DNA of 64,000 nucleotides from Faecousia sp. (GTDB lineage: Bacteria > Bacillota > Clostridia > Oscillospirales > Oscillospiraceae). Every line of letters begins with the position of its first letter. The stretch's first letter is position 1. The notes under the pieces were generated by a model. It had not been told where the DNA came from. It made no database searches and saw only the letters and a list, made by a program, of their open reading frames with translations. Where the stretch lies: the NCBI GenBank assembly GCA_045644345.1, contig JAZRGR010000225.1, positions 15,146 to 79,145 of the forward strand, written 5' to 3'. Positions 3 through 44,115 of the stretch are shown here, piece by piece. The position numbers were made by a program, and so were the translations under genes.

Positions 3-3000
3 GCTGCCATAAATGAATTACATGACTATGCAACTACATTGACCAAGACGGTTAACGGTGTTAGCCCAGATCCCGATACTGGAGATGTTCGTGTTATTGG
101 AGAAGACATTCATGCTTTTCCTGCCAATATTCCCGATTTTAAGGGGAGCGTAGACGATGCTCTGGACATCCTGGGTCTGGCAGTTTTCCATGGGCAATTA
201 GGAAACTTCAAGAGGGCACTGGAGAATTATGCTCGCACGGACGACATTTTAGGAATCCCTGTCTTGGATACTGCTGGTAAGAAGTACGGCAAGATGGCCA
301 TAATCGGAACCGAAGAGGAGATGAACGGAAAACAAAATTTCTTTGAGGTTCCCACGCTTAATACGGTAAAGAAGCTTTTATCCAATCTGAATACAGAACT
401 GTCTGGTGGTTTGGATTTTGATTCCGGCTACGTAGATCCCCAAGGGTACATCCATCTGACCTTGGGGGGTGAGGAGATCCCGGGCTTTACCCCCTTCTAC
501 ATCGGCTCGGCTTCCGAGGCTCCCGGGGATCTGCTGATCGAGGGAGACCGCCTGTACCTCAGCAAGGACGGGGAGCCTGTGGGAGAGGGCGTAGAGCTGC
601 CCAAGGGTGGAGGCACCGGCTCCGGCTCTGTTATGAAGCTGTTAAACGGTCTCGGTAGCAGTGCCTTCTCCCTCATGGACACCGCCAAGGAGGCTGTGAT
701 CCTGTATAGCTGGTCCTCGGTGGATGCGGAGGACGGGACCCCTACAGGTAAGGGCTCTGCATCCTGGTTCGTAGGAGACAGACGGGTTGCGACTCAGAGT
801 GTGGAGCAGGGAGAGTGCTCCTTTGACATCCTGCCCTACTTAGAGACAGGTGTTGCTAATACGGTGAAGCTGACCCTTGAGGATGCATACGGCACCGTAC
901 GCAGCCGCATATGGACGGTGACGGTGATCTCCTTCGGCCTAAGCTGGGACTTAGAGCAGATGGACAGCCACCCCTCTGCACCTATGTCTGTGCGCTTCAT
1001 CCCTACGGGCATGGGGGATAAGACCCTGCGGCTGTATATTGACGATCGGGAGCACCATGTACAGACCGTTGCCTCTACGGGGCGGACAGTGACCGTGGAC
1101 ATCCCTGCACTGCCTCACGGAGTGCATAGGATCACAGCCACTCTGGAACTGGTAGCAGAGGGGCAGACGGTGACGACAGATCCCTTGACCCACGTGGGCA
1201 TCTGGCATGAGGAGAGCAGTACCGAGGCAGTGGTCGCCTTCTATGACACCGCAGTAGAGGTAGCGCAGTATGCTACTGCAGGGATCGCCTATCTGGTCTA
1301 TGACCCCGTGATCGAGAATGCAGCCATCACCCTATACGACAATGGAGCAGAGGTTCGTAATCTCACTGTTGGACGGGGGATGCAGATCTGGGCTTACCGC
1401 CCCACTGCAGAGGGGCAGACCACCCTGCAGATCGCAGTGGATCATACCGATGCGCGGGCATCCCTTCCTGTGACAGTAACAGCCCTGGGCTATGATATCG
1501 CTCCCGTAAGTGCAGGGCTCCTGTTAGAGTGCAACCCTGCAGGTCACTCCAACGCTGAGACGGATCGGGAGTCCTTCGGCTACACTGACGGACAAGGGCA
1601 GAATCACCCCTTTGTGTTCTCACCGGGCTTTGACTGGGTGAGCGGAGGCTTCCGACAGGATGATGAGGGGATCACCGCTCTTGTCATTAAGAGGGGCACC
1701 TCCGTAACCTTAGACCGTAGCTTCTTCCAGGGGGATGCGACCTCCTCGGGCAGGGAGATCAAGCTGATCCTTAAGGTAACAAACTGCCGGGACTACGAGG
1801 CCCGGTTCTTACATTGTTATGATGCGCCCGTGGGTCTGGTGCTGAGAGCACAGGAGGGAGTTCTGTCCTCGGAATCCCAGAGCCTTACCATTCCCTACTG
1901 TGAGGAAGAGAAGTTAGAGATCGATCTGAACATCGAAGCCCTTAAGGAGCACCGTCTTGCAACAGTCTGGCTCAGTGGCATACCCTCCGGGGTCTTTGTC
2001 TACGGGACAACGGATGCCTGGGTGCAGAGCAATCCCGATCCCGTAGTCATTGGCTCTGAGGACTGTGACGTGTGGCTGTACGGTCTGCGGATGTACGGCA
2101 ATTCCCTGACCTTGCAGGACATCCTTGCAAACTACATTGCAGACGCAGGGACTACCGAGGAGATACTTGCACGGTATGAGCGGAACGACATCTATGCCGC
2201 CAACGGCTCACTCAGCCTGTCTAAGCTCCGTGACAACAACCCGGATCTGCGGATCCTCCATATCTCAGCCGGGGACATGACCACGGGGAAGGAGCATGAG
2301 GTAAGCTGCTCAGTTGACTTAGATCATAAGAACGGCAAGGGTTTTACTGCGTCGGGCGTCATTATGAAGGCACAGGGCACCTCCTCCCTGGAATACGGCA
2401 TGGCGGCTCTCAATTTAGACTTGGACTTCTCCTCAGCCAAGTGGACAGATGACAAGGGGGAGACCATCACCGCCTTCTCTATGGCAGAGGCCGCTGTCCC
2501 TGTGAACTACTTTAACATCAAGCTCAACGTTGCCTCCTCAGAGAATGCCAACAACGTCTGCTTAGCTGAGGAGTACAACCGCCACAATCCCTACCGCTCC
2601 ATGCCTCGTGAGGATCACCCTGCGATCCGTGACACCGTAGAGGGACACCCCTGCGCCGTTTTCCTCACCAACACAGGAAGCAGGACTATGACCGTAGGCG
2701 CCCGTTCTCTCCTGCCCGGTGAGACCATGCTCTACGGCTGTGGGGATATGAACAACAGCAAGAAGAACTTTGCCGTCTTCGGCCAGGATAACAGCACCTA
2801 TCCCAAGCAGTGCTGTATCGAGATCCTCAACAATAACAACGCTCCCTGCCGTTTCAAGTCCGACGATCTTACTACCGAGACTTGGGACGGGGCAGAGGGA
2901 ACCTCCAACTTTGAATTCCGCTACCCCAAGAACCCTACACAGGAGATGAAGGACAGCTTCCGAGCACTCCTATCCTGGGTGGTCTCCACCGATCCCACAC

Positions 3001-5684
3001 AGGCAACGGGTCAGACCCTCCCCAGACCTGCACAGTACGCAGGTCGTACCTACAACACAGACACCGGGGATTACCGCAGGGCTAAGTTCAGAGCAGAGCT
3101 TGCAGAGTACTTTGCAGTAGACTCCCTCTTGTTCCACTACCTCTTTACGGAGTACCATCTCATGGTGGACAACCGTGCCAAGAACACCTTCCTGTCTTAC
3201 GAGTGGGACAAGGGAGCAGGGAAGTACCTGTGGAACTTTAACAAGGACTACGACAACGACACTGCGGCAGGCACGGACAATTCAGGCGGTCTCAGCTTTA
3301 CCTACGGCATGGAGGACACGGACAGTGTCGGGGCGCAGAAGGTCTTTAACGCCTGGGATTCCGTCCTGTGGTGCAATCTCCGTGACCTCTTTGCCCCGGA
3401 GCTTAAGACCATGTACCACAGTCTGGAATCTCAGAAGGTATGGGACAGGGAGCGGATCTTAGAGGTTTTCCGCACCTACCAGAGTGCAAGGCCGGAGATC
3501 CTGGTAGCCGAGGATATGTGGGCTAAGTACTTTACCCCCTACATTCACGGAGGGGAGAGACGGTATCTTGCTATGGCACAGGGGAACAAGACCCTCCAGA
3601 GAGCCGCCTTCTACCGTTACAGACAGAGCTACATGAGCTCCAAGTATGACAGCCCCTTCGCCCTGTCCGATTCCCTATCCTTGAGAGCCAATGCAGTATC
3701 CGATCTGTCTGTGACCCTGTATTCCGATGCCTATGCCCATGTACGCTTCGGTAACGCAGGCTCCGTCAAGGTAAGGGGCAAGCGAGGGGAGTCTATCCCC
3801 ATCCCCTGCAAGGCAGATACGGCAAACGACTTGGAGACCTACCTGTATTCTGCAGGCAGTATTTCCGTCTTAGGAGACTTAAGCGGTCTCATGGCTGATC
3901 AGATCGAGCTGAACTCAGCAGTCAAGCTGCGGAACCTGCCCTTGGGCAGTGGGGATCCGGGCTATGGCAACGAGGATCTGACCCAGCTCAGCTTCGGCAC
4001 CATTACGGCTCTGGAGTCTATTGATCTGCGTGGCTTAAGTCGCCTGTCCGGGGCTGTGGATCTGACCCAGTTCGACGGACTGAGGGAGCTGCTGGCATCG
4101 GGCAGCGGTATCAGCGGTGTGATCCTTGCACCTAACTGCCCCATAGAGACTCTGGATCTGCCACCTGTGGGAACTCTGGTTCTACGGGGACACAGACAGC
4201 TTAGCCGGGTGTACCTTGACACCCATAAGCTGCAGAACCTCCGTCTGGAGGACTGTCCCCATATGGACAGCATGGATCTGTGCCGCAATGCCCCTTCTCT
4301 GCAACGGGGCAGAGTGACGGGGGTATCCTGGCAACAGGCAGATGCAGACCTCCTGCTGAGGCTGTCGAAGCTGTCGGGCTACGATGGTGAGGGACTGCCT
4401 ACGGACACCTTTGTGCTTACAGGCAGGGCTCATGTGCCTGCTGTGTGTGAGGAGGAGCTGGAGAGCCTGCATCGAGCCTTCCCTAATTTAGAGCTGACCT
4501 ATGATACTGTGGTTCCCGGTTACACCGTGACCTTCTGTGGGGCGGACGGGTCGGTTCTGTATACTTGCAGGATCCGTCACGGAGGGGTTTGCCCCGATCC
4601 CGTAGCAGAAGGCAGGATCCCCACACCCACAATGGCATCCACAACGGAGCATTCCTTCCGTTACGTGGGCTGGGATCTGCTGCCGGAGACTATTACGGGG
4701 GACGTAACTGTGACAGCCCTCTTTGCTCCCTTTGTGCGGTGGTACAAGGTTCGATGGTTCAACGGTAGTCAGCTCCTCCAGGAGGATGTGGTGGAGGTAT
4801 ATGATTCCGTCTCCTACAAGGGGCAGGATCTCCGTTCCGACACACCGGGTGTCATCTGGATCGGATGGGATAAGGATCAGCAGGAGCTGGACGCAGTGAC
4901 GAGGGATATGGATGTACACGGGGTATACCTGTATCCTCGTCTCCCCGACGGTATAAAGATACAGTATGACTATCTCTACTCAGACGATCCCGGGGATTTC
5001 AGTGCCTACAGTCTTGCAGAATTCTATGGGATCATCCACGGAGGGGTGGCACAGGAGTACTTCAACATCGGAGACAAGGTTAAGCTCAAGCTCCGCTCTT
5101 CTGCGGTAACGGATACGGAGATCATACTGCAGGTCTACGGCTTCCGCCAGTATGAATGCGCCGGAGAGGTGGGCGGCTGTGCCCAGGTGGTCTTTGGAAT
5201 GGTGGGTGTTATGGATCAGAATATGAAGATCATGAGTACAAGCGATAACGTCGGCGGCTGGAAGGCATCCGGCATCCGAGCCTTTCTGAACGATACCCTC
5301 TATTCAACACTGCCGATCCACTGGCGCGGAATGATCAAGACGGTAGAGGTCCGATCCTCTGTAGGTGGCCAGTCCGGTGAGATCCAAATGACCGAGGACA
5401 AGCTCTTCCTCTTTGCGTACAGTGAGCTGTTTAACTCTAAGGTACAGCCTTATTCCAATGAGGTTGCAAGGATAGAGGACTTGCCCTATACACTCTTTAC
5501 GGATAGCACATCCCGTATCAAGAATAAGTATAACGGTACAGGTGGAGCCGCCCGTTATTGGACACGGAGTCCCGATGCAGGTGACTCTATTCGATATATG
5601 CTGGTGGGACCTAACGGCAGTACGGATTGGCAGAACGCACCGGCAGGGAATGCCGCTGGTATTGCCTTCGGCTTCTGTATCTAA
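3..5684 (+). CDS. Very large phage tail/minor structural protein, 5'-partial. Contains a CotH-kinase-like central region, leucine-rich repeats, InlB-B-like repeats and a DUF6273-like C-terminal domain
   Basis: The frame is open from base 3 (AAINELHDY..., a tail-fibre-like AAINEL motif), so the TTG at 39 is not the true start. Motifs: KAQGTSS, WNFNKDYDNDTAAG, LESIDLRGL-type repeats, YTVTFCGADG...FRYVGWD, C-terminal DKLFLFAYSELF...YWTRSP...GIAFGFCI. Confidence 0.8.
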   Translation, partial: AAINELHDYATTLTKTVNGVSPDPDTGDVRVIGEDIHAFPANIPDFKGSVDDALDILGLAVFHGQLGNFKRALENYARTDDILGIPVLDTAGKKYGKMAIIGTEEEMNGKQNFFEVPTLNTVKKLLSNLNTELSGGLDFDSGYVDPQGYIHLTLGGEEIPGFTPFYIGSASEAPGDLLIEGDRLYLSKDGEPVGEGVELPKGGGTGSGSVMKLLNGLGSSAFSLMDTAKEAVILYSWSSVDAEDGTPTGKGSASWFVGDRRVATQSVEQGECSFDILPYLETGVANTVKLTLEDAYGTVRSRIWTVTVISFGLSWDLEQMDSHPSAPMSVRFIPTGMGDKTLRLYIDDREHHVQTVASTGRTVTVDIPALPHGVHRITATLELVAEGQTVTTDPLTHVGIWHEESSTEAVVAFYDTAVEVAQYATAGIAYLVYDPVIENAAITLYDNGAEVRNLTVGRGMQIWAYRPTAEGQTTLQIAVDHTDARASLPVTVTALGYDIAPVSAGLLLECNPAGHSNAETDRESFGYTDGQGQNHPFVFSPGFDWVSGGFRQDDEGITALVIKRGTSVTLDRSFFQGDATSSGREIKLILKVTNCRDYEARFLHCYDAPVGLVLRAQEGVLSSESQSLTIPYCEEEKLEIDLNIEALKEHRLATVWLSGIPSGVFVYGTTDAWVQSNPDPVVIGSEDCDVWLYGLRMYGNSLTLQDILANYIADAGTTEEILARYERNDIYAANGSLSLSKLRDNNPDLRILHISAGDMTTGKEHEVSCSVDLDHKNGKGFTASGVIMKAQGTSSLEYGMAALNLDLDFSSAKWTDDKGETITAFSMAEAAVPVNYFNIKLNVASSENANNVCLAEEYNRHNPYRSMPREDHPAIRDTVEGHPCAVFLTNTGSRTMTVGARSLLPGETMLYGCGDMNNSKKNFAVFGQDNSTYPKQCCIEILNNNNAPCRFKSDDLTTETWDGAEGTSNFEFRYPKNPTQEMKDSFRALLSWVVSTDPTQATGQTLPRPAQYAGRTYNTDTGDYRRAKFRAELAEYFAVDSLLFHYLFTEYHLMVDNRAKNTFLSYEWDKGAGKYLWNFNKDYDNDTAAGTDNSGGLSFTYGMEDTDSVGAQKVFNAWDSVLWCNLRDLFAPELKTMYHSLESQKVWDRERILEVFRTYQSARPEILVAEDMWAKYFTPYIHGGERRYLAMAQGNKTLQRAAFYRYRQSYMSSKYDSPFALSDSLSLRANAVSDLSVTLYSDAYAHVRFGNAGSVKVRGKRGESIPIPCKADTANDLETYLYSAGSISVLGDLSGLMADQIELNSAVKLRNLPLGSGDPGYGNEDLTQLSFGTITALESIDLRGLSRLSGAVDLTQFDGLRELLASGSGISGVILAPNCPIETLDLPPVGTLVLRGHRQLSRVYLDTHKLQNLRLEDCPHMDSMDLCRNAPSLQRGRVTGVSWQQADADLLLRLSKLSGYDGEGLPTDTFVLTGRAHVPAVCEEELESLHRAFPNLELTYDTVVPGYTVTFCGADGSVLYTCRIRHGGVCPDPVAEGRIPTPTMASTTEHSFRYVGWDLLPETITGDVTVTALFAPFVRWYKVRWFNGSQLLQEDVVEVYDSVSYKGQDLRSDTPGVIWIGWDKDQQELDAVTRDMDVHGVYLYPRLPDGIKIQYDYLYSDDPGDFSAYSLAEFYGIIHGGVAQEYFNIGDKVKLKLRSSAVTDTEIILQVYGFRQYECAGEVGGCAQVVFGMVGVMDQNMKIMSTSDNVGGWKASGIRAFLNDTLYSTLPIHWRGMIKTVEVRSSVGGQSGEIQMTEDKLFLFAYSELFNSKVQPYSNEVARIEDLPYTLFTDSTSRIKNKYNGTGGAARYWTRSPDAGDSIRYMLVGPNGSTDWQNAPAGNAAGIAFGFCI

Positions 5685-6804: not shown

Positions 6805-7005
6805 ATGAAGAATTGGAAGATTTGGGCAAAGGCTGCCGGTATTCGTGCCCTTAAGACCTTTGCACAGACCATGGTAGGTGTGATCGGTGCTTCTGCCCTG
6901 ATCACCGAGGTAAATTGGCAGACGGTCCTGTCCTCTGCAGCACTGGCAGCTCTGCTGAGTCTGCTGACCAGCGTGGCAGGTCTGCCGGAAGTAAAGGAGG
7001 AATAA
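6805..7005 (+). CDS. Holin, Dp-1-like family
   Basis: 66 aa, two TM segments, AAGIRALKTFAQT...VNW...LLSLLTSVAGLPEV signature; AAGGAGG RBS. Confidence 0.85.
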   Translation: MKNWKIWAKAAGIRALKTFAQTMVGVIGASALITEVNWQTVLSSAALAALLSLLTSVAGLPEVKEE

Positions 7006-7008
7006 GAC

Positions 7009-7740
7009 ATGAGCAAATATCCTGTTCAGTGTGATGCCCAGATCCGGGCTAAGGAGATCGTCCTCGACTATACGAGAAAGCACCTTGATCCTGCCAGTAA
7101 CATTGAGATCAGCATGGATGATGTGTTTGTCGTGTGGTTCTGCAAGACCCTACACCATGCAAAGGTACTGGTCTCTACCACCCTGCCCGATGGGATGTAC
7201 TACGAAGTTACCTTCAACGGCGTTAAGGGAGAAATCTACCTCGATGCCTATAAGAAGTTCGAGAATGTCTGTATTACTGTGGAGGAGAATCCCAACGATG
7301 AGGGCTACCGTGTGATCTATCCTGACGGATATGTTAGCTGGAGCCCGAAGGAGGTCTTCGAGAACGCATGCCGTGAGATCGGCGAGGTGGATGAACTCAG
7401 AATGCCGTTGCTCACCACCAAGCACACCAGAGTGTTTGTGGAGAGTGAGTTCTCCAACAATGCTCCGCACAACTACTTTGTCGCAAGAGCAGAGGACGGT
7501 CGTGGTCTGTGCCACATCCACTTCCAGGAAGGGCCTATCAAGGAATGCGGTGTCAACGGAGTCTGTGACGAAGATCTGATCAATATGGTCATTGACCGTA
7601 TGGAACATTTTCAGAACAGCCCCTTTGCCTGCCGGGAAAATGCTTTGGCGATTACCGCACTGGAGGAGGCTCTGCTGTGGCTCCGCAAGCGCACCATGGG
7701 CAGAGAACAGCGTGGCGTAGAAGGCACCCACATCGTATAA
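7009..7740 (+). CDS. Multi-domain putative anti-defence protein: DUF6275-like N-domain, YPDGYxSWSPK motif and Tad1-like C-domain
   Basis: The C-terminal ~110 aa (HIHFQEGP...GVCDEDLINMVIDRMEHFQNSPFACRENALAITALEEALLWLRKRTMGREQRGVEGT) match my recollection of the Tad1 pattern FQxG...GV.D.DL...V.DRL..FQ.GPF..REN..A.T..EEAL.W...R...R..R.V.GT. Confidence 0.75.
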   Translation: MSKYPVQCDAQIRAKEIVLDYTRKHLDPASNIEISMDDVFVVWFCKTLHHAKVLVSTTLPDGMYYEVTFNGVKGEIYLDAYKKFENVCITVEENPNDEGYRVIYPDGYVSWSPKEVFENACREIGEVDELRMPLLTTKHTRVFVESEFSNNAPHNYFVARAEDGRGLCHIHFQEGPIKECGVNGVCDEDLINMVIDRMEHFQNSPFACRENALAITALEEALLWLRKRTMGREQRGVEGTHIV

Positions 7741-7753
7741 GGAGGAGTGAGCT

Positions 7754-8551
7754 ATGAGAAAGCTGAAAATTTGCCTTGATCCGGGGCATGACGAGGGCTA
7801 CAATCCTTCACCGTGTGGCTTTGGATATGCAGAGGGTACGCGGATGTTTTTCTTTGCCGGGATGCTTAAGGCGGCACTGGAACAGTACGGTATCGAAGTT
7901 GTAACAACTCGCAGTCGCGTAGAGGCTAACCCCGATCTGCTTCAGCGTGCGCAGTATGGCAAGGACTGCGATTTGCTTCTGAGCCTGCACAGTAACGCCG
8001 TAGGCAATGAGGCAAACGAGAACATAGACTATGTGCGTGTTTACTATCCCATTTCGGGCAAATGCAGGGATCTGGCTTCTTTGCTCTCAAATACGATTGC
8101 TGATGTTATGCAGACGAATCAGAATCCGCAGTATCTGACACGCATCAACAGCACCGGCACAGCAGACTACTACGGCATTATCCGCCATTCGGCGACCCTC
8201 GGCGTGCCTGCACTCATTTTGGAGCATAGCTTCCACACCCACTCGCGTAGCACGCAGTGGCTGATGTCCGATGTAAATCTGTTCGCTTTGGCAAAGGCCG
8301 AGGCAAAGACCATTGCAGACTATTACGGTCTGCAGAAAATAAAAGAGGAGGAAAGCGAAATGCGCTATAACACCCTTGCTGATCTCAAGGCAGACCCCAA
8401 CAGCCGGTTTTATCTGCCCACCGTAGAAAAGCTGATCGAGAAGGGTTATCTGAACGGAAAGGGCGGTACCGGAGAGGATCTGATCCTGGACTTTTCCGAG
8501 GATTCCATCCGCATCCTCGTCACCCTTGACCGGGCTGGGGTTTACGACTAA
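7754..8551 (+). CDS. Endolysin, N-acetylmuramoyl-L-alanine amidase (Amidase_3) with a C-terminal wall-binding domain
   Basis: LDPGH...E, LSLHSNA and ILEHSFH zinc-amidase motifs; downstream of the holin. Confidence 0.9.
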   Translation: MRKLKICLDPGHDEGYNPSPCGFGYAEGTRMFFFAGMLKAALEQYGIEVVTTRSRVEANPDLLQRAQYGKDCDLLLSLHSNAVGNEANENIDYVRVYYPISGKCRDLASLLSNTIADVMQTNQNPQYLTRINSTGTADYYGIIRHSATLGVPALILEHSFHTHSRSTQWLMSDVNLFALAKAEAKTIADYYGLQKIKEEESEMRYNTLADLKADPNSRFYLPTVEKLIEKGYLNGKGGTGEDLILDFSEDSIRILVTLDRAGVYD

Positions 8552-8596: not shown

Positions 8597-8648
8597 AAAA
8601 GCACTCTCTGCAGGAATTAACTTCTGCGGAGAGTGCTTTTTCTTTTTT
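8597..8648 (+). terminator. Intrinsic terminator after the endolysin
   Basis: AAAAGCACTCTCTGCAG / CTGCGGAGAGTGCTTTT stem followed by a T-run. Confidence 0.8.
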
Positions 8649-8859
8649 GAAAAATGAAAGTAACTGAGGGGGTCTGTGTTGTACACTGAGATAGAACAGT
8701 TAACGACATAGGGTTATACTGTTGCTACCTAAAGAACTCTGTTGAAGAGATAAGAAACTTTGCTGACCTGCTATGAGGACTGATATTTCCATTGCAGTAC
8801 CTTTCGTGTTTTGATATGGAGTTCTCCTGAATTTTTCCAAAGAAGGGAGGAATGTTTCT

Positions 8860-8976
8860 ATGTGGATCTATTCTCGATACATAACAAAGAACGGCAAACG
8901 CATTTATCCGAAAAAAGCTCGTTGTTTCCGATTCTGGGTCGATGACATTAAGGATGTTTCCGGGAAGAGAAAATAA
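8860..8976 (+). CDS. 38-aa basic small protein MWIYSRYITKNGKRIYPKKARCFRFWVDDIKDVSGKRK (not in the ORF track)
   Basis: Strong RBS AAGGGAGG 9 nt before ATG 8860; hairpin CAAAGGGCGA/TCGCCCTTTG (8987-9013) after the stop. Confidence 0.65.
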   Translation: MWIYSRYITKNGKRIYPKKARCFRFWVDDIKDVSGKRK

Positions 8977-9064
8977 TATAGATAAACAAAGGGCGATGTC
9001 AGCTCGCCCTTTGCCTGATATAAGAGGGGAGTCATAAATTTAATGAAATAATAGTCTATTGATA

Positions 9065-9580
9065 TATGGTGGACCGGACGGGGAGCTGGGAGCATCCCTG
9101 CGATATCTCAGCCAGAGATACTCTATGCCATACCCGGAGTTAAAGGGATTACTAACTGATATCGGTGTTGAGGAGCTCGGTCATTTGGAGATGATAGGTT
9201 CCATCGTTCACCAACTGACGAGGAAGCTCACAGACGACCAGCGAAAGGAAGCAGGGTTTGCTCCCTATTTCGTAGATCACACCCAGGGAGTGTATCCCCA
9301 GGCGGCTGCAGGTGTTCCCTGGTCTGCTGCTATGATGCAGGTAAAGGGGGATCCAATTACGGATCTGGCAGAGGATATGGCAGCAGAACAGAAGGCGAGG
9401 ACCACCTATGACAATATTCTGAGACTGTCTGATGATCCCGATGTAAACGATGTGATCAAGTTCCTCCGTGCCAGAGAGGTAGTGCATTTTCAACGCTTCG
9501 GAGAAGCAATGGAAATGCTGAGGGATAAGCTGAATCGTAAGAATATCTACTATATGAACCCTGCGGCAAAGGGATCGTAA
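9065..9580 (+). pseudogene. cotJC: 3' part of spore coat Mn-catalase gene cotJC, 5' end separated by prophage insertion (potentially restorable by excision)
   Basis: YGGPDGELGASLRYLSQRY...DIGVEELGHLEM...GDPITDLAEDMAAEQKAR...REVVHFQRFGE is the Mn-catalase/CotJC signature. It lacks the ~25 N-terminal residues and an RBS, and no cotJB lies upstream. Confidence 0.85.
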
Positions 9581-37924: not shown

Positions 37925-37970
37925 AAAATACCGCTGTATGGAGAGGAAACCCGTACAGTGGTATTTTTTT
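37925..37970 (+). terminator. Terminator of the maltodextrin operon
   Basis: AAAATACCGCTGTATGG / CCGTACAGTGGTATTTT stem (with G-U pairs) plus T-run. Confidence 0.75.
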
Positions 37971-37980
37971 GTATTTCTGT

Positions 37981-38009
37981 TTGACAAAAACTCTATTATG
38001 GGTTAAACT
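37981..38009 (+). promoter_or_regulatory. Sigma-A promoter of the triple-glycosidase gene
   Basis: TTGACA-N17-TAAACT. Confidence 0.75.
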
Positions 38010-38106
38010 AGATAATGGATTTATTTGCACTGTATCTTTTCGTTCCCATGCCCATGGGGAACGTAATGATAAACAAAATCCTTATGGAAAGAAAAGGAGA
38101 AACACT

Positions 38107-41100
38107 ATGAGCAAAAGAGCATTGTCCCTAATTTTGTGCCTATCCATGCTGTTATCCATGATCGTTCTCCCTGTTGCCGCAGAGCGTAAGGCTGAGACCA
38201 AGGCTCCTGCAGTTCAGGAAGAGTTCGAAATCGTGGGTGACTGGGTATGGGGAGAAACCGTATATTCCCTTGGCGCGGACAAAATCGTTGACCGCAGTGC
38301 AAGAATGGGTGTTACGGATCTGTATATGCTTGCCAAGGGTACCGGTGGCAAGCTGAGCTACCTTAAGACCCAGTATAAGGATGCACTGGCAAGAACCAAC
38401 CGCGATGTGATGCAGGAACTGATCACCGCCGCTCATAAGAAGGGGATTCGTGTCCATGCATGGCTGGTGACTGTTGAAGATGAATATTATAAGTCCAAGC
38501 ATCCCGAGGCAGGTGTGTACCACTATGTTCGCGGTACGGATAACAACCGCATCAATCCCTATGATGCAGGCTACCGTACCTATATGTCCAATATCGTTAC
38601 GGAGATCGTTTCCGGCTACGATATTGACGGCATTCATCTGGACTATATCCGCTACAACCATGTAGCAAATGGTTGGAGTGCTACCGACTTTGCGAACATC
38701 AAGGCTATGGGCGCCGATGTGGAGCAGGTCAAGTACATGATCAACAAGACCTTCTATCAGGACAAGCTTCCCGCAGGAGAGACTGTAAACGAGCGCTATC
38801 TGTTCGATGCATACAGAAACGGCGACCCCACTGCACTGCTGATCGGTCAGTATCGCCGTGATAATATTGCAAACTTTGCAAGACTCCTCCGTGATGCCGC
38901 AAAGGCTGCTGATCCCGAGATCATCTTTACCGGTGCACTGATGCCGGAAGGTGGCGTTACCTATGGTGATGAGGATATTGCTTTCGGCGATCTCCACTAC
39001 GGTCAGAACTATAAGGATGCCGCAGAGATCTACGACTATGTATGCCCCATGGCTTACTCCGCTTCTTATGAGGCAGAGCCCCGGTGGATGGCTGACATTG
39101 CTACCTACTGTGTTGAAATCGGTGCGGATGTTGTTATGGGATTGCAGTCCTTCTCTCCGCTGACCACGGCAAGATTGATGGCTGACATTGAAGCAGTCCG
39201 CGGGCTCCTTCCTATGGAAGGGGTTCTGGGCATTGCTCATTTCCGCCATACACAGTTCAGCTATGCTAAGACCAACTACAATTACAATACCGGTGTTATG
39301 GATATTGAGTACATCAATGCTTCCGAGTCCGGTTCCATTAAATGGGTCAAGGTGGATGTACCCGCAGGCATGAAGATCACCAAGGCTTCTGTGGTCAGTG
39401 GCTTCAAGTCTTCTTCTCCCATCTCTGTTTCTTCCGACGGACGGACCGCGACCATTGGTTATTCCGATACATCCTCCAGCACCATCCTGGCTGCATTGGG
39501 CGAGGGTAAGCTCCGTGTACAGTTCACCGGAAGACCTAATGACGAGACCGTAAGAGCTTCCTTGGTTCGCTCCTACATCGGTTCCGGCGAGACCCGTGTC
39601 TACAATGTTTACGAGGATATGACCAATTTCAAGGTCACCTTCGTAGATCATGACGGTACCACTTTGGCCACCAAGACCGTGGCTCCCGGCGGTTCTGTAG
39701 AAGCTCCCGAGGATCCCATCCGTTACGGCTATGTCTTTGCAGGTTGGGACAAGAGCTTTGAAACAGTGAACAGCGACCTGACGGTTACCGCTCGGTACGA
39801 GAAGATCCAAGTAGCAGGCGAATTCGAGATCGTAGGCGACTGGGTTTGGGGCGAGGATGTTTATAATCTGGGCGCAAAGACCGTTGTTGACCGTAGCGTC
39901 AAGTACGGCGTGACCGATCTGTACATGTTGGCCAAGGGTACCGGTGGTAAGCTGAGCTATCTGAAGACCCAGTATACCGATGCAAGAGCAAGAACCGACC
40001 GTGATGTTCTCCAGGAGCTGATCACCGAGGCTCATAAGCAGGGCATCCGTGTTCATACTTGGCTGGTTACTGTAGAAGATGCTTACTACAAGTCCAAGCA
40101 TCCCGAAGCAGGTGTATATCATTATGTCCGCGGTACGGACAATGACCGCATTAACCCCTATGATGAGGGATACCGTACCTATATGTCTAACATTGTTAAG
40201 GAGATCGTCTCCGGATACGATGTAGACGGTGTCCATCTGGACTACATTCGCTACAACCATCTGGCTAACGGTTGGAGTGATACTGACTTTGCTCGGATTG
40301 CTGCAATGGGTGCGGATGTAGAGCAGGTCAAGTACATGATCCATAAGACCTTCTACCAGGATAAGCTCCCCGCAGGTGATGTTATGGACGAGAACTATGC
40401 ATTCGATGCATACAGAAACGGTGATCCCACCGCTATGCTTATTGCACAGTACCGTCGTAACAACATCAATGACTTTGCAAAGCTCTTGAGAGACACCGCA
40501 AAGAGTGTGGATTCCGACATTATCTTCACCGGTGCCCTCATGCCCGAAGGCGGCGTGACCTATGGTAAGGAGGATATTGCCTTTGGCGATCTCCACTATG
40601 GTCAGAATTATGCAGATGCTGCCGAGATCTATGATTATATTTGCCCCATGGCTTACTCCGCTTCCTACGAGGCAGAGCCTCAGTGGATGGCTGACATTGC
40701 TTCCTACTGCGTAGAGGTTGGCAATGATGTTGTTATGGGTCTGCAGTCCTTCTACCCCTTGACATCTACCCAGCTTATGGGTGATATCAACGCTGTTCGC
40801 GGTCTGCTTCCCATGGAAGGTGTGCTGGGTATTGCCCATTTCCGCCACAGCCAGTTCAGCTACTCCAGAGCCATTTATGACTATAACACCGGTGTGATGA
40901 ATATTGACTTCCTCAATGCATCCTCCGCAGGCGGCTGCCAGTGGTTGATCGTAGAAGTGCCCCAGGGCATGAAAATCACTAAGGCTACCCTTGGAACCGG
41001 CTTTACCTCCGGTGCTCCCGTTTCTATTGCATCTGACGGTCGTTCTGTGAAGTTCGGCTACGCAGATACTTCCTCCAGCACTGTGATCGGCTCTCTGAAG

Positions 41101-44016
41101 TCCGGTAAGATGACTATCAACTTCACCGGTAAGCCTGTTGACGAGAAGGCAAGACCCTCCCTGGTTCGTATTTACATCGGCTCCAATGAAAGCCGTGTAT
41201 TTAACACCTATGAGGATCATACCACCTATACCGTTACCTTTAAGGATGCAGACGGTACTGTTCTTGCTAACAAGAAGACCTATGCCGGTGGCACTGTAAA
41301 GGCTCCCGAGGCTCCCGAGATGGAAGGCTACACCTTTGCGGGATGGGATAAGAATTTCGATGCAGTTACCGAGAACTTGGTAGTTACTGCTACCTACGTT
41401 GCTAACGGTCCCAAGGAATTCGAGATCGTCGGTGAATGGGTATGGGGCGAAGACATCTATAATCTGGGTGCAGATACCGTTGTCGGTCGCTGTGCACAGA
41501 TGGGTGTTACCGATATCTATCTCCTGGTTAAGGGTACCGGCGGTAAGCTCAGCTTCCTGAACACCCGCTATCCCGATGCTACCTCCCGAACCGACCGTGA
41601 CGTTCTGCAGGAGTGTATTGATGTTGCCCATGCTGCGGGCATCCGTGTCCATGCATGGATGGTCACTGTGGAAGACAGCAACTACAAGGCAAACAACCCT
41701 GAGGCAGGTATGTACCACTACATCCGCGCCAGAGACAATGACCGGATCAATCCTTATGATGCAGGTTACCGTACCTATATGTCCAATCTGGTAACCGACC
41801 TGGTTTCCAATTACGACATTGATGGTCTGCACCTGGACTACATCCGCTACAACCACCTGTGCAACGGTTGGAGTGACACCGACTTTGCAAATCTGGCTGC
41901 AATGGGTGCCAATGTTGAGAATATCAAGTATATGATCGACAAGACCTTCTATGCAGACCGCCTCCCCACTGGTGAGTCTGTAGATGCCAACTACATCTTT
42001 AAGATGCTGGCAAACGGCGACAAGGACGCTACCATCGCAGCTCAGTACCGCCGTAACAACATTGTTGACTTTGCAAAGCTGCTGGTCAACACTGCTAAGG
42101 CTATTAAGCCCGATCTGATCATGTCTGCAGCTGTTATGCCCGAGGGTGGTGTTGCAGGCGGCAGTGCAGGCAGTGCCAATACCGGCTTTGCTGACCTCCA
42201 CTATGGTCAGAACTACACCGATGCAGCAGACATCTATGATTACATCGCTCCTATGGCATATACCGCAAGTTACGGCACCGGTCCTGACTGGTTCGCAGGC
42301 ATTGCTGAGTATGCCGCATCCGTAGGTAACGGTGTTGTTATGGGTACCCAGTCCTACTATCCTTCTGTTTCCGCCGATCTCATGGCTGAGATCGAGGCTA
42401 CCCGTGCACTGCTTCCCATGGAAGGCATCCTGGGTATCGTTCACTTCCGTCACAGCCAGTTCAGCTATGTGAAGTTCGCTACTGATATGGCTGCAGGAGA
42501 GATGGATGTTCATGCCATCAACACCTATGCAAGCGGCGGCTTCAACTGGCTGCGGATCGAGGCTGCAGAGGGTGTCACCTTTACCGGTGCACAGTACCTC
42601 AACGGCTTCAATGCAGAGGCTCCCATTACCATTGCTCCCGATGGAAGCTACATTATCTTTGGTTACGAGGATATTTCCGGCACCGTTCTGCCCACACTGG
42701 CAGAGGGCGACCTCCGCATTACCTTCACCGGCAAGCCTGTTGACCCCAACGGACGTATTGCCATCGGCCGCATCTACATCGTATCCAATGAAAGCCGCGC
42801 ATACAGCACCTACACCACCCGTTGCAGTCATAGCTGGGGCTTGGGCACTGTAGCCCTTGAAGCAACCTGCACTGCAAGAGGTGCAATAGTTTCCGAGTGT
42901 GCTCTCTGTGGAGAGGCTAAGGTTGACAGCATCCCTGCTACCGGTCACAGCAAGACCTACACTTATGTAGATGCAGAGTACCACATGGTCGGCTGCTCCA
43001 AGTGTAACTTCGAAGAACTGGACGTCCATGAGTATGTTGACGGTATCTGCATCTGCGGTGCGGACAATACAACTGTGACAGAGGATCCTGCGATTATGAT
43101 CAGTCATACACTGAATCTTGCCAGCGATATTTCTGTGAACTATGCAGTTCTCTACACATACCTCAACGGGTATGATATGAACTCTGTATATCTGGAAGTT
43201 GAGATGGATGACTACGACGGAAATATCAAGACAGGAACGACTGTGCAGAAACTGCTGCCTGAGCGTCGCGGTAATTTCTACTATTTCGCTCTGGATGGTC
43301 TGAATGCTGTACAGATGAACAATGAGCTCCGTGCAGTTCTCTATGGACAGAAGAATGGCAAGAACTATTGCTCTGCGGTAGATACCTATTCTGTTGCACA
43401 GTATGCTTATTCTCAGCTCAATAAGACTACTGTTGCTGATAGCCTCAAGGTCCTGTGTGCTGATCTGCTCCGATACGGTGCAAAGGCACAGACCTTCAAG
43501 GGATATCGCACCGATGCTCCGGCAGATCAGAATATGACTGCAGTGCATAAGGCATATCTCAGCGATATCGACAATGTCACCTTTAACAACAATGCCTTTG
43601 AGTTCGGATTTATTCCCAATCCCACAGTTGCATGGGCAGGCAAGGCACTGGACCTGAATGCCAAGGTCGGTGTTCGCTATGTTGTGGATCTGACCAACTA
43701 TGCAGGCAAGATCGAGGATCTGAGTCTCCAGGTTACCTATGTTGATATTTACGGTGTAAGCCGTATGGAGACTGTGGAGGAGATCGAGCTGTACTATGCT
43801 CCCATGAACCAGTACGCATTCACCTTCGAGGGACTCCTTGCAGCAGAGCTTCGTGTTGTTCTGACTGCTAAGGTTATGGAGAACGGCAATCCCGTCTCCA
43901 ACGACCTGATCTATAGTGCCGATACTTACGGCATCGGTAAGACAGGTGTTCTGGGTGAGCTGTGCAAGGCACTCTTTGCCTACAGCGACAGCGCGAAGGC
44001 ATACTTCGTCGATTAA
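38107..44016 (+). CDS. Secreted 1969-aa protein: three tandem GHL10/DUF187-like TIM-barrel units, each with a beta-domain and separated by InlB-B-like repeats, then a Cys/His linker and the shared C-terminal module
   Basis: Start ATG 38107 after AAAGGAG; signal peptide ending PVAA-E; three copies of GIRVHAW, DG.HLDYIRY, DY..PMAY. Confidence 0.75.
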   Translation: MSKRALSLILCLSMLLSMIVLPVAAERKAETKAPAVQEEFEIVGDWVWGETVYSLGADKIVDRSARMGVTDLYMLAKGTGGKLSYLKTQYKDALARTNRDVMQELITAAHKKGIRVHAWLVTVEDEYYKSKHPEAGVYHYVRGTDNNRINPYDAGYRTYMSNIVTEIVSGYDIDGIHLDYIRYNHVANGWSATDFANIKAMGADVEQVKYMINKTFYQDKLPAGETVNERYLFDAYRNGDPTALLIGQYRRDNIANFARLLRDAAKAADPEIIFTGALMPEGGVTYGDEDIAFGDLHYGQNYKDAAEIYDYVCPMAYSASYEAEPRWMADIATYCVEIGADVVMGLQSFSPLTTARLMADIEAVRGLLPMEGVLGIAHFRHTQFSYAKTNYNYNTGVMDIEYINASESGSIKWVKVDVPAGMKITKASVVSGFKSSSPISVSSDGRTATIGYSDTSSSTILAALGEGKLRVQFTGRPNDETVRASLVRSYIGSGETRVYNVYEDMTNFKVTFVDHDGTTLATKTVAPGGSVEAPEDPIRYGYVFAGWDKSFETVNSDLTVTARYEKIQVAGEFEIVGDWVWGEDVYNLGAKTVVDRSVKYGVTDLYMLAKGTGGKLSYLKTQYTDARARTDRDVLQELITEAHKQGIRVHTWLVTVEDAYYKSKHPEAGVYHYVRGTDNDRINPYDEGYRTYMSNIVKEIVSGYDVDGVHLDYIRYNHLANGWSDTDFARIAAMGADVEQVKYMIHKTFYQDKLPAGDVMDENYAFDAYRNGDPTAMLIAQYRRNNINDFAKLLRDTAKSVDSDIIFTGALMPEGGVTYGKEDIAFGDLHYGQNYADAAEIYDYICPMAYSASYEAEPQWMADIASYCVEVGNDVVMGLQSFYPLTSTQLMGDINAVRGLLPMEGVLGIAHFRHSQFSYSRAIYDYNTGVMNIDFLNASSAGGCQWLIVEVPQGMKITKATLGTGFTSGAPVSIASDGRSVKFGYADTSSSTVIGSLKSGKMTINFTGKPVDEKARPSLVRIYIGSNESRVFNTYEDHTTYTVTFKDADGTVLANKKTYAGGTVKAPEAPEMEGYTFAGWDKNFDAVTENLVVTATYVANGPKEFEIVGEWVWGEDIYNLGADTVVGRCAQMGVTDIYLLVKGTGGKLSFLNTRYPDATSRTDRDVLQECIDVAHAAGIRVHAWMVTVEDSNYKANNPEAGMYHYIRARDNDRINPYDAGYRTYMSNLVTDLVSNYDIDGLHLDYIRYNHLCNGWSDTDFANLAAMGANVENIKYMIDKTFYADRLPTGESVDANYIFKMLANGDKDATIAAQYRRNNIVDFAKLLVNTAKAIKPDLIMSAAVMPEGGVAGGSAGSANTGFADLHYGQNYTDAADIYDYIAPMAYTASYGTGPDWFAGIAEYAASVGNGVVMGTQSYYPSVSADLMAEIEATRALLPMEGILGIVHFRHSQFSYVKFATDMAAGEMDVHAINTYASGGFNWLRIEAAEGVTFTGAQYLNGFNAEAPITIAPDGSYIIFGYEDISGTVLPTLAEGDLRITFTGKPVDPNGRIAIGRIYIVSNESRAYSTYTTRCSHSWGLGTVALEATCTARGAIVSECALCGEAKVDSIPATGHSKTYTYVDAEYHMVGCSKCNFEELDVHEYVDGICICGADNTTVTEDPAIMISHTLNLASDISVNYAVLYTYLNGYDMNSVYLEVEMDDYDGNIKTGTTVQKLLPERRGNFYYFALDGLNAVQMNNELRAVLYGQKNGKNYCSAVDTYSVAQYAYSQLNKTTVADSLKVLCADLLRYGAKAQTFKGYRTDAPADQNMTAVHKAYLSDIDNVTFNNNAFEFGFIPNPTVAWAGKALDLNAKVGVRYVVDLTNYAGKIEDLSLQVTYVDIYGVSRMETVEEIELYYAPMNQYAFTFEGLLAAELRVVLTAKVMENGNPVSNDLIYSADTYGIGKTGVLGELCKALFAYSDSAKAYFVD
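38221..42810 (+). repeat. Three ~1.6-kb intragenic direct repeats
   Basis: GA(G/A)TTCGA(A/G)ATCGT.GG.GA.TGGGT.TGGGG at 38221, 39820 and 41416 (periods 1599 and 1596 nt). Confidence 0.9.
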
Positions 44017-44115
44017 GTCTCGGATACTCTGATTGAACGAAAACAAGGGGGCTGTCATTTTGACAGTCCCCGAATCTTATTTTTGAGTATGCAACGGGAT
44101 TTTTTTAACTTCCCG

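What the first reader, a model, noticed from the sequence alone, without database searches (positions are those of the whole stretch)
7009..7740. Three-part candidate anti-defence sponge fusion embedded between holin and endolysin
Seen: one 243-aa ORF with three parts: aa ~1-92 (VFVVWFCKTL...LVSTTLPDGMYYEVTFNG.KGEIYLDAYKKFEN), aa ~97-123 (EGYRVIYPDGYVSWSPKEVFENA) and aa ~130-243. Known: Tad1 proteins are phage sponges that sequester Thoeris (and some CBASS) cyclic-nucleotide signals; the third part reproduces the Tad1 pattern as I recall it (H.Y...FQxG...GV.D.DL...DR...FQ..PF..REN..A.T..EEAL.W...R). From memory, the first part resembles DUF6275 and the middle motif occurs in phage proteins fused to DUF2829/Tad2-type domains. 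Inference: sponges are often fused to one another, so the N-terminal domain is a candidate new immune-signal binder or nuclease, making this a multi-specificity counter-defence protein. Its position inside the lysis cassette is unusual.
Basis: partly seen in the sequence, partly recalled or inferred. Interest (0 to 1): 0.82.

Follow-up and report, generated by a model that had tools for sequence, protein, structure and literature searches.

The report
Tad1 sponge fused to DUF6275 by deletion
A prophage gene between the holin and endolysin genes encodes a real Tad1-type anti-defence "sponge", but its three-part look comes from a one-off 103-base deletion that welded it to the neighbouring gene of unknown function, not from a designed multi-sponge protein.

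Summary
The 243-aa ORF (7009-7740, +) exists and has the three parts described.

- **aa 13-90** is Pfam DUF6275 (E = 3e-31).
- **aa 128-243** is a clear Tad1. It matches CmTad1 8KBB by sequence (E = 1e-32, about 50% identity) and by fold (AF2 model, TM 0.82-0.85). All published gcADPR/dinucleotide and trinucleotide contact residues are kept.
- **aa 93-127** is not a module of its own. It is the C-terminal half of a ~60-aa N-terminal domain ("N-dom") that the closest relatives carry intact in front of Tad1.

Close relatives hold two separate genes in the same holin|endolysin slot: DUF6275 (87-94 aa), then N-dom-Tad1 (182 aa). Other relatives hold only one of the two. The window lacks exactly 103 nt across that gene boundary, flanked by GAGGAAT/GAGAAT microhomology, which gives an in-frame fusion.

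No other DUF6275-Tad1 fusion turned up among 1.84 billion representative proteins or in 146 related loci. So this is a Tad1 family member with a singleton, probably recent, gene fusion.

DUF6275 has no known function or solved fold. It is a mobile accessory gene that sits next to Tad1 or Tad2-like genes in at least four lineages, which makes it a reasonable but unproven anti-defence candidate.

The parts
6805..7005 (+). Holin gene (66 aa, r1t-type). It is the upstream border of the accessory-gene slot.
   Evidence: PF16945 E=6.6e-16 and phrog_443 holin E=6e-20.
6994..7000 (+). Shine-Dalgarno AAGGAGG, 8 nt before the ATG of the fusion ORF.
   Evidence: Read directly from the sequence.
7009..7740 (+). 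Whole fusion ORF, 243 aa: DUF6275 :: truncated N-dom :: Tad1.
7009..7284 (+). DUF6275 module (aa 1-92). It retains 92 of the 94 residues of the stand-alone gene in relatives.
   Evidence: PF19791 E=3.3e-31. 90-92% identical to the stand-alone 94-aa proteins P0121, L003, L007 and L008. The AF2 model has pLDDT 84.6 and shows a helix plus a 5-stranded antiparallel sheet.
7282..7287 (+). Deletion junction (GAG|GAG). Relative to L003/L002, 103 nt are missing here: the last codons, stop codon and RBS overlap of the DUF6275 gene, plus codons 1-31 of the Tad1 gene.
   Evidence: DNA alignment and exact count with GAGGAAT/GAGAAT microhomology.
7285..7389 (+). Remnant of the N-dom (aa 93-127). The second half (beta-hairpin plus short helix) survives and the first 31 residues are deleted. 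The conserved Tyr is replaced by Cys at aa 121.
   Evidence: Aligns to residues 32-66 of the 182-aa relatives. N-dom HMM E=6e-18. AF2 pLDDT about 74-87 with strands 98-103 and 109-113 and helix 114-120. Y121C sits at a column that is 92% Tyr.
7390..7737 (+). Tad1 core (aa 128-243). It is complete relative to stand-alone Tad1 proteins.
   Evidence: phmmer against 8KBB CmTad1 E=1.1e-32 and 7UAV CbTad1 E=2.4e-15. Foldseek against 8kbb gives TMt 0.82-0.85 and rmsd about 2 A. phrog_2428 E=1e-43. The Pfam Acb2_Tad1_hairpin hit is below cut-off, 24.6 against 27 bits.
7754..8551 (+). Endolysin (N-acetylmuramoyl-L-alanine amidase, 265 aa). It is the downstream border of the slot.
   Evidence: PF01520 E=2e-16 and phrog_435.
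8597..8640 (+). Strong intrinsic-terminator-like hairpin (19-bp stem plus T-run) that closes the late/lysis operon at the prophage end.

Best explanation
The ORF is a chimeric gene made by a 103-nt deletion that fused two adjacent accessory genes. These genes sit in the holin|endolysin slot of an Oscillospiraceae (Faecousia-like) prophage. Gene 1 is a stand-alone DUF6275 protein. Gene 2 is a 182-aa protein made of a ~60-aa N-terminal domain (N-dom) followed by Tad1. The deletion removed the DUF6275 stop codon and the first 31 codons of gene 2, and left everything in frame. The working part is most likely the intact C-terminal Tad1 domain. By homology, it should assemble as a trimer of dimers and sequester Thoeris gcADPR (and cyclic dinucleotides) in the dimer pocket, and CBASS cyclic trinucleotides at the trimer interface. 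This would blunt signalling-based abortive infection. DUF6275 (function unknown) rides along as an N-terminal appendage, and the N-dom remnant acts as a linker. What is shown here: domain identities, the deletion, the uniqueness of the fusion, and conservation of the ligand residues. What is inferred: that the fused protein still folds, forms a hexamer and binds signals, and that it is expressed with the late lysis operon.
For: (1) Two-gene ancestry. L002-L005 have holin, DUF6275 (87-94 aa), N-dom-Tad1 (180-182 aa), endolysin. L001 and L006 have only the Tad1 gene in the slot. L007 and L008 have only DUF6275. (2) The window lacks exactly 103 nt at the gene boundary, flanked by GAGGAAT/GAGAAT. 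(3) Tad1 identity is supported (E=1e-32; TM 0.82-0.85). The CbTad1 residues F82, N92, R109, R113 (gcADPR/CDN) and R90, T97 (cA3) correspond to F201, N211, R228, R232, R209 and T216 in the window protein (alignment; residue roles from bioRxiv 10.1101/2023.11.15.567273). N211, R228 and R232 are invariant in 96 relatives. (4) N-terminal extensions on Tad1 are natural and common. Most of the 120 best hits are 180-192 aa N-dom-Tad1 proteins, and others carry an altN domain (211-220 aa) or a hexapeptide-repeat domain. An N-terminal appendage is therefore tolerated. (5) Pairwise dN/dS against relatives is 0.05-0.13 for all three parts. (6) The fusion is unique. The best hit among 1.84 billion representatives scores 177 bits and covers only the Tad1-gene part. 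The only double hits are tandem DUF6275 proteins. There is also no fusion in the top 120 hits from 5.8 billion clusters, nor in 146 IMG/VR loci. (7) The genes are tightly packed, each with its own RBS. No promoter-like site lies upstream of the ORF, promoter-like sites in the region do not exceed chance, and a terminator follows the endolysin.
Against: No read-level confirmation of the junction was possible. No public run holds this sequence, and the runs that hold the host flank lack the prophage. The window lineage carries 5 nonsynonymous against 2 synonymous private changes in the Tad1-gene part. Two of them hit Tyr residues that are at least 92% conserved (Y121C, Y139H), which is compatible with relaxed constraint after the fusion. 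The counts are tiny, and the intact L003 shows 7:2. The hexamer-interface residues differ from CmTad1 at K96->A217, Q98->E219 and M102->L223, although A217 also occurs in the relatives P0006 and P0042. Oligomerisation and binding of the fused protein are untested. Late-operon placement is not the expected timing for a counter-defence gene.
Confidence: 0.75

Rival explanations
1. One reading: this is a purpose-built multi-specificity counter-defence protein, in which DUF6275 is a second immune-signal binder or nuclease fused to Tad1 for combined action.
For: DUF6275 lies directly upstream of Tad1 in L002-L005, abutting or overlapping its start, which would fit translational coupling. It lies within about 1.5 kb of Tad1 plus a Tad2-like gene in L104/L114, directly after a Tad2-like gene in L062, and about 0.6 kb from an altN-Tad2-like gene in L052/L060. 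It is unusually conserved across phages of Firmicutes, Actinobacteria and even a Methanobrevibacter MAG (42-65% identity), as expected for a binder of a universal ligand. Tandem-duplicated DUF6275 proteins suggest a dimeric unit.
Against: The fusion is a singleton produced by a deletion that also destroyed half of the N-dom. DUF6275 is otherwise stand-alone: 98 ORFs in the local census and all of the best 120 database hits. No function, no literature, and no similarity to any solved sponge or nuclease are known. None of the 80 IMG/VR DUF6275 loci has Tad1 within 4 kb, and only 3 have a Tad2-like gene.
Confidence: 0.1
2. The fusion is a damaged, decaying allele. The deletion crippled one or both proteins (misfolded half N-dom, blocked assembly), and the ORF survives only because the event is recent.
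For: It is a singleton. Five conserved N-dom positions are deleted, and the near-invariant Tyr is mutated to Cys. Y139H lies at a column that is 96% Tyr in the Tad1 core. The private N:S ratio is 5:2. The slot tolerates loss of either gene (L001, L007, L008).
Against: The reading frame is intact over 243 codons and every ligand residue is kept. The AF2 model of the Tad1 core is confident, pLDDT 86-98. The private substitution counts are too small to separate from those of the intact relative L003. A217 is seen in other Tad1 proteins.
Confidence: 0.2
3. The fusion is an assembly or sequencing artefact, and the real genome has two genes.
For: No independent sequence or read support could be found. 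The window protein itself is absent from the protein collections searched.
Against: A clean 103-nt loss between 6-7-nt imperfect direct repeats is typical of real slippage or illegitimate recombination. That microhomology is far too short to cause a de Bruijn-graph chimera. The flanking sequence is collinear with relatives on both sides.
Confidence: 0.05
4. DUF6275, and hence the fusion, is a lysis-cassette accessory such as a holin or endolysin regulator, not a counter-defence factor.
For: It lies between holin and endolysin in this lineage, and next to endolysin- or holin-like genes in several IMG/VR groups (for example L061 and the L077 and L024 groups).
Against: In annotated phages it lies in unrelated places. 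These include between the minor capsid and scaffold genes (Lactococcus 98104), among unnamed genes downstream of the cos site (Streptococcus SM1), beside replication genes (Streptomyces TieDye), and before the small terminase (FP_Taranis). The 306 neighbours fall into 179 clusters. The AF2 model is a small helix-plus-sheet domain, and no transmembrane segment is evident in the sequence by eye (no predictor was run).
Confidence: 0.05

Closest known systems
Tad1 (Thoeris anti-defence 1) sponges: CmTad1 (PDB 8KBB-D), CbTad1 (7UAV/7UAW, 8KBE-H), SBSphiJ7 Tad1
   Same: aa 128-243 aligns end to end with CmTad1 (about 50% identity, E=1e-32) and shares its fold of an N-terminal antiparallel sheet plus two C-terminal helices (TM 0.82-0.85). 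The gcADPR/CDN pocket residues (F201, N211, R228, R232) and the cyclic-trinucleotide residues (R209, T216) are conserved.
   Different: It carries a 127-aa N-terminal extension (DUF6275 plus half an N-dom) that no other Tad1 in the databases has. Several hexamer-interface positions differ from CmTad1 (A217, E219, L223). It is encoded inside a lysis cassette, and none of the 66 IMG/VR Tad1 loci showed that placement with the seeds used. Binding and oligomeric state are untested.
182-aa N-dom-Tad1 proteins of Oscillospiraceae prophages (P0001-P0013; loci L001-L006)
   Same: 87% identical over aa 81-243. Same holin|endolysin slot and same operon layout.
   Different: They have an intact N-dom (residues 1-31 present) and their own start codon and RBS. 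DUF6275, when present, is a separate upstream gene.
Pfam DUF6275 (PF19791) / phrog_918 stand-alone phage proteins
   Same: aa 13-90 matches the full model. The window part is 90-92% identical to the 94-aa proteins of L003, L007, L008 and P0121.
   Different: Here it lacks its last two residues and its stop codon and runs on into another protein. The family has no assigned function.
Acb2 (anti-CBASS 2) sponges
   Same: They share the helical-hairpin element (Pfam Acb2_Tad1_hairpin; weak hit at aa 193-225) and the hexameric mode of binding cyclic trinucleotides described for Tad1.
   Different: The sequence and fold matches are to Tad1, not Acb2. No Acb2 chain appeared in the PDB searches.

Membership tests
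Tad1 sponge family | Significant sequence homology to experimentally characterised Tad1 proteins over the whole domain. | tested here: met
   phmmer against the PDB: 8kbb_A E=1.1e-32 (query 128-241 against chain 11-130) and 7uav_A E=2.4e-15. phrog_2428 E=1e-43. Pfam PF24729 scores only 24.6 bits, below the cut-off of 27.
Tad1 sponge family | Tad1 fold: N-terminal antiparallel beta-sheet followed by two long C-terminal helices. | tested here: met
   The AF2 model has pLDDT 86-98 over aa 130-235, with strands 140-145, 155-160 and 166-172 and helices 187-202 and 209-234. Foldseek's top 20 hits are all Tad1 chains, with TMt 0.72-0.85.
Tad1 sponge family | gcADPR / cyclic-dinucleotide pocket residues (CbTad1 F82, N92, R109, R113). 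| tested here: met
   These align to F201, N211, R228 and R232 (roles). N211, R228 and R232 are invariant in the 96-sequence alignment.
Tad1 sponge family | Cyclic-trinucleotide pocket residues (CbTad1 R90/T97 = CmTad1 R88/T95). | tested here: met
   These align to R209 and T216.
Tad1 sponge family | Homohexamer (trimer of dimers) through CmTad1 R88, T95, K96, Q98, E99, M102, W103 and K106. | tested here: inconclusive
   R209, T216, E220, W224 and K227 are conserved. K96->A217, Q98->E219 and M102->L223 are changed. No multimer prediction or experiment was available, and the effect of the 127-aa N-terminal appendage is unknown.
Tad1 sponge family | Binds and sequesters gcADPR / cA3 and rescues phage from Thoeris or CBASS. 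| not testable with these tools
   This needs ITC or HPLC and plaque assays.
DUF6275 (PF19791) | Match to the Pfam model above the gathering score over its full length. | tested here: met
   107.4 bits against 22.6; residues 13-90 match profile positions 3-80 of 81.
Multi-sponge fusion protein (two immune-signal binders in one chain) | Both fused modules are demonstrated or homology-supported signal binders. | tested here: not met
   DUF6275 has no characterised member, no literature and no sequence or fold match to any solved structure.
Multi-sponge fusion protein (two immune-signal binders in one chain) | The fused architecture recurs, that is, it is conserved in relatives. | tested here: not met
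   No other protein joins DUF6275 and Tad1 in 1.84 billion representatives, in the top hits of 5.8 billion clusters, or in 165 loci. The nearest relatives keep two genes.

The most novel reading that the evidence does not exclude
DUF6275 is a previously unrecognised counter-defence family, for example a dimeric sponge or inhibitor for a conserved immune signal. It travels with Tad1/Tad2-type genes in phage accessory islands. In this reading, the window's accidental fusion is a still-functional two-headed inhibitor and a natural experiment showing that the two activities can share one polypeptide.
Probability: 0.12. Interest if true: 0.7.

Novelty: new member of a known kind. Interest (0 to 1): 0.33.

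Why it matters
The Tad1 call is solid and adds an Oscillospiraceae gut-prophage clade. In this clade the sponge sits inside the lysis cassette and usually carries an extra N-terminal domain. The headline claim of a three-part multi-sponge shrinks to a singleton deletion fusion, so on its own it is not evidence for a new mechanism.

The useful leads are by-products:

- **DUF6275.** It is a highly conserved, mobile, small phage protein. It is found beside Tad1 or Tad2-like genes in several lineages, and sometimes occurs as a tandem duplicate. It is a cheap candidate for anti-defence screening.
- **N-dom and altN.** These are uncharacterised N-terminal modules fused promiscuously to Tad1, Tad2-like and other small phage domains. 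They may modulate sponge function.
- **The holin|endolysin junction.** It acts as a swap-in/swap-out slot for accessory genes in these prophages.

Tried and rejected
- **Read-level check of the junction.** No public run holds window 6900-7700 (maximum word share 0.06). The runs that share the host flank (X10-X13) have no contigs over 7053-7640. This led nowhere.
- **Function of DUF6275 from structure.** The AF2 model is good. Foldseek against the PDB gave nothing better than E=0.15. BFVD returned only uncharacterised phage proteins. A PDB profile search found nothing.
- **Function of N-dom.** PDB searches by sequence and by profile were empty. There is no Pfam family for it.
- **Mixed alignment for a full-length model (A2).** MAFFT aligned Tad1 relatives against the DUF6275 segment, so A2 was discarded. 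A3 was used instead, which left DUF6275 without alignment depth in the full-length model (low pLDDT at aa 35-77). For the same reason, the deviations at aa 48-90 reported are alignment artefacts and were ignored.
- **Greedy two-strand gene calling.** It picked spurious antisense ORFs. It was replaced by calling genes on the same strand only.
- **Iterative Tad2-like HMM.** It drifted into altN proteins through altN-Tad2 fusion proteins. It was rebuilt from trimmed seeds and checked with Pfam.
- **Internal restart that could yield free Tad1.** Only M132 (ATG at 7402) is a candidate. It has a weak AGGTGG 11 nt upstream, and the Met is not conserved in relatives. This is treated as unlikely.
- **Literature.** There are no papers on DUF6275 or PF19791, and no relevant paper on Tad1 in lysis cassettes.
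Full report
**Observation.** The window holds a 243-codon ORF at 7009-7740 on the + strand. It has an AAGGAGG ribosome-binding site 8 nt before its ATG. It is packed between a 66-aa r1t-type holin (6805-7005; PF16945 E=7e-16; phrog_443) and a 265-aa Amidase_3 endolysin (7754-8551; PF01520 E=2e-16; phrog_435). A strong terminator-like hairpin at 8597-8640 follows the endolysin, and promoter-like sites in the region do not exceed chance. The three genes therefore look like the end of one late operon at the right end of a prophage. Upstream lies a 1881-aa tail-fibre-like protein with DUF6273, and downstream lie host genes: Mn-catalase, diaminopimelate dehydrogenase and a radical-SAM enzyme.

**The three parts.**
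- aa 13-90 match Pfam DUF6275 over the full model (107 bits against a cut-off of 22.6) and phrog_918.
- aa 128-241 match solved Tad1 structures by sequence alone. The matches are CmTad1 8KBB at E=1.1e-32 (about 50% identity), CbTad1 7UAV at E=2.4e-15, and phrog_2428 at E=1e-43.
- The Pfam Acb2_Tad1_hairpin model scores just below its cut-off (24.6 against 27 bits), so a Pfam-only annotation would miss the Tad1 domain.
- An AlphaFold2 model built on 96 relatives is confident over the Tad1 core (pLDDT 86-98). Its 20 best Foldseek hits in the PDB are all Tad1 chains, with TM 0.82-0.85 and rmsd about 2 A to CmTad1.
- The ligand-contact residues are known from the structural paper (bioRxiv 10.1101/2023.11.15.567273, section 6). 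Using the alignment, CbTad1 F82, N92, R109 and R113 (gcADPR and cyclic-dinucleotide pocket) correspond to F201, N211, R228 and R232.
- CbTad1 R90/T97 (the same positions as CmTad1 R88/T95, the cyclic-trinucleotide pocket) correspond to R209 and T216. All six residues are conserved, and N211, R228 and R232 are invariant across the 96 relatives.
- At the hexamer interface, E220, W224 and K227 are kept, while CmTad1 K96, Q98 and M102 are A217, E219 and L223. Ala at 217 also occurs in the relatives P0006 and P0042.

**What the middle part really is.**
- The best database hits are 87% identical but cover only aa 81-243. They are 182-aa proteins that begin MKTYIGTKVIEAEPMTRGEYNQFRGWTIPADENPNDEGYRVIYPDGYVSWSPKEVF.... 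This is an intact ~60-aa N-terminal domain ("N-dom") in front of Tad1.
- The window protein has only the second half of that domain, from ENPNDEGY onward.
- N-dom also exists as a stand-alone 70-80-aa phage protein. It is found fused to other small modules: crAss001_48 in P0246, and Phage_gp49_66 in L065 and L115.
- A similar "altN" domain is fused to Tad1 (P0093, P0099), to Tad2-like PF11195 (L052, L060) and to DUF1642 (L063).
- Neither domain has a Pfam model or a relative in the PDB.

**Origin of the fusion.**
- Genomic context of relatives settles the matter. L002, L003, L004 and L005 carry holin, DUF6275 (87-94 aa), N-dom-Tad1 (180-182 aa) and endolysin as separate genes. In L002 and L003 the stop codon of the first gene lies one base before the ATG of the second; in L004 and L005 the two abut or overlap.
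- L001 and L006 carry only the Tad1 gene in the slot.
- L007 and L008, from a Faecousia sp. MAG, carry only DUF6275. L008 has the same Mn-catalase-like host gene to the right as the window.
- A DNA alignment shows the window is collinear with L003/L002 except for one gap of exactly 103 nt: GAGGAATAA-C-ATG...CCTGCGGAT. This gap removes the last DUF6275 codons and stop codon together with codons 1-31 of the Tad1 gene.
- The breakpoints lie in an imperfect direct repeat (GAGGAAT upstream, GAGAAT downstream), as expected for slippage or illegitimate recombination. Because the two frames are offset by one base, a loss of 103 nt puts them in frame.
- The "three-part fusion" is therefore two neighbouring genes welded together, and the middle part is a half-domain remnant.

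**Is the architecture found elsewhere?** No.
- An index-free HMMER search of 1.84 billion representative proteins found 6467 hits. The best scores 177 bits and covers only the Tad1-gene part.
- The only proteins in the listed top 150 that match two separate DUF6275 stretches are tandem duplicates of DUF6275 (P0307, P0334, P0378, P0444, P0361).
- The top 120 hits from 5.8 billion clusters contain no such fusion either.
- A local HMM census was run over 165 loci, including 80 IMG/VR DUF6275 loci and 66 IMG/VR Tad1 loci. It found 98 stand-alone DUF6275 ORFs, 67 ORFs matching only the Tad1-core model, 6 N-dom-Tad1 ORFs, and a single DUF6275+N-dom+Tad1 ORF, which is the window's.

**Is the fused gene still working?** This cannot be decided here.
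- In favour:
  - The frame is open, and the Tad1 core is complete and confidently modelled.
  - All ligand residues are present.
  - N-terminal extensions of 60-200 aa are the rule rather than the exception in this Tad1 clade.
  - Pairwise dN/dS against relatives is 0.05-0.13 in every segment, although this mostly reflects history before the fusion.
- Against:
  - The window's private changes in the Tad1-gene part are 5 nonsynonymous to 2 synonymous.
  - They include Y121C in the N-dom remnant (a column that is 92% Tyr) and Y139H in the Tad1 core (96% Tyr).
  - The numbers are too small to interpret, and the intact L003 shows 7:2.
- I could not verify the junction with reads. No public run holds the sequence, and the bovine-gut runs that share the host flank lack the prophage. 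An assembly artefact is nevertheless unlikely, given the clean microhomology-flanked deletion.

**What is DUF6275?**
- It is unknown. There is no literature on it.
- The AF2 model (pLDDT 84.6) is one helix packed on a five-stranded antiparallel sheet. It has no significant PDB neighbour (best E=0.15), and only uncharacterised phage proteins match it in BFVD.
- The family is large: 2491 clusters and 278 annotated phage records. It is found mainly in phages of Gram-positive hosts, plus one Methanobrevibacter MAG and one Spirochaetales MAG.
- It is strongly conserved, with 31 invariant positions in alignment A1.
- Its genomic position is highly variable. It lies between the minor capsid and scaffold genes (Lactococcus 98104), among unnamed genes downstream of the cos site (Streptococcus SM1), beside replication genes (Streptomyces TieDye), before the small terminase (FP_Taranis), and next to lysis genes in other cases.
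- Its 306 immediate neighbours fall into 179 clusters. This is the behaviour of a mobile accessory gene, not of a lysis or structural component.
- It lies next to or near sponge genes in at least four lineages:
  - the window lineage, where it is adjacent to Tad1;
  - L104/L114, with the order Tad2-like, Tad1, weak Tad2-like, ..., SNase, DUF6275 in L114;
  - L062, where a Tad2-like gene is directly upstream;
  - L052/L060, where an altN-Tad2-like gene lies about 0.6 kb downstream.
- However, none of the 80 IMG/VR DUF6275 loci has Tad1 within 4 kb, and I had no proper null model. This is guilt by association only.

**Position in the lysis cassette.** The holin|endolysin placement is conserved in this Oscillospiraceae prophage lineage (L001-L008 and the window). 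It was not seen in any of the 66 IMG/VR Tad1 loci with the holin and amidase seeds used, which have limited sensitivity. The slot behaves as a swap-in/swap-out site that holds DUF6275, Tad1, both, or the fusion.

**Verdict.** The feature is a new member of the Tad1 family carrying a singleton deletion-generated fusion to the adjacent DUF6275 gene. It most likely acts, if it still acts, as an ordinary Tad1 sponge for Thoeris and CBASS signals. Interest is moderate to low for the fusion itself. The better leads are DUF6275 as an anti-defence candidate and the N-dom/altN modules.

Noticed in passing
PDB 8y6v_I (PhiKZ gp184), matched by window aa 161-241: The inner-capsid vertex protein gp184 of jumbo phage PhiKZ (230 aa) matches the Tad1 core by sequence (E=9.5e-12, chain residues 147-227). 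The capsid paper describes it only as a beta-rich minor capsid protein (PMC11297242). A virion-packaged Tad1-like domain would be worth a look.
   Followed up: partly
Proteins P0307, P0334, P0378, P0444, P0361: DUF6275 occurs as tandem duplicates within single 172-260-aa proteins. This suggests the unit normally works as a dimer.
   Followed up: partly
P0241-P0299; L052, L060, L061, L063, L065, L115; P0093, P0099, P0246: Two small uncharacterised N-terminal modules were seen: N-dom (...GYxVxYPDGYxSWSPKExFExAY) and altN (...GDxIIxGVxGExYPCKPDIFExTYE). They occur alone or fused to Tad1, Tad2-like (PF11195), Phage_gp49_66, crAss001_48 and DUF1642. They have no Pfam family and no PDB relative.
   Followed up: partly
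L114:227-2388 and L104:3685-6051 (IMG/VR): In L114, an accessory island has the order Tad2-like, Tad1, weak Tad2-like, small ORF, HNH-like ORF, SNase, DUF6275, phage connector. L104 carries a similar set with Tad1 and DUF6275 about 1.4 kb apart. Sponge genes and DUF6275 lie within about 1.5 kb of each other.
   Followed up: partly
window 8597-9580: The Mn-catalase ORF (9059-9580, TTG start) begins at Pfam profile position 28, just beyond the prophage's terminal terminator. L008 shows the same gene next to the same prophage end. The prophage may be integrated in or at the 5' end of this gene.
   Followed up: no
window 39-5684: A 1881-aa tail-fibre-like ORF has DUF6273 at its C-terminus (E=1e-13). 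The relative L002 has a 1967-aa counterpart, followed by the same three small ORFs before the holin.
   Followed up: no
window 37969-44058: Two overlapping ORFs of about 2000 aa lie on opposite strands (37969-44016 + and 38152-44058 -). At most one can be real. Several other ORFs of 1600-1900 aa follow in the host region.
   Followed up: no
window 7369-7371 and 7423-7425: Two private substitutions hit near-invariant tyrosines: Y121C in the N-dom remnant and Y139H in the Tad1 core. This may be a sign of relaxed constraint after the fusion.
   Followed up: partly
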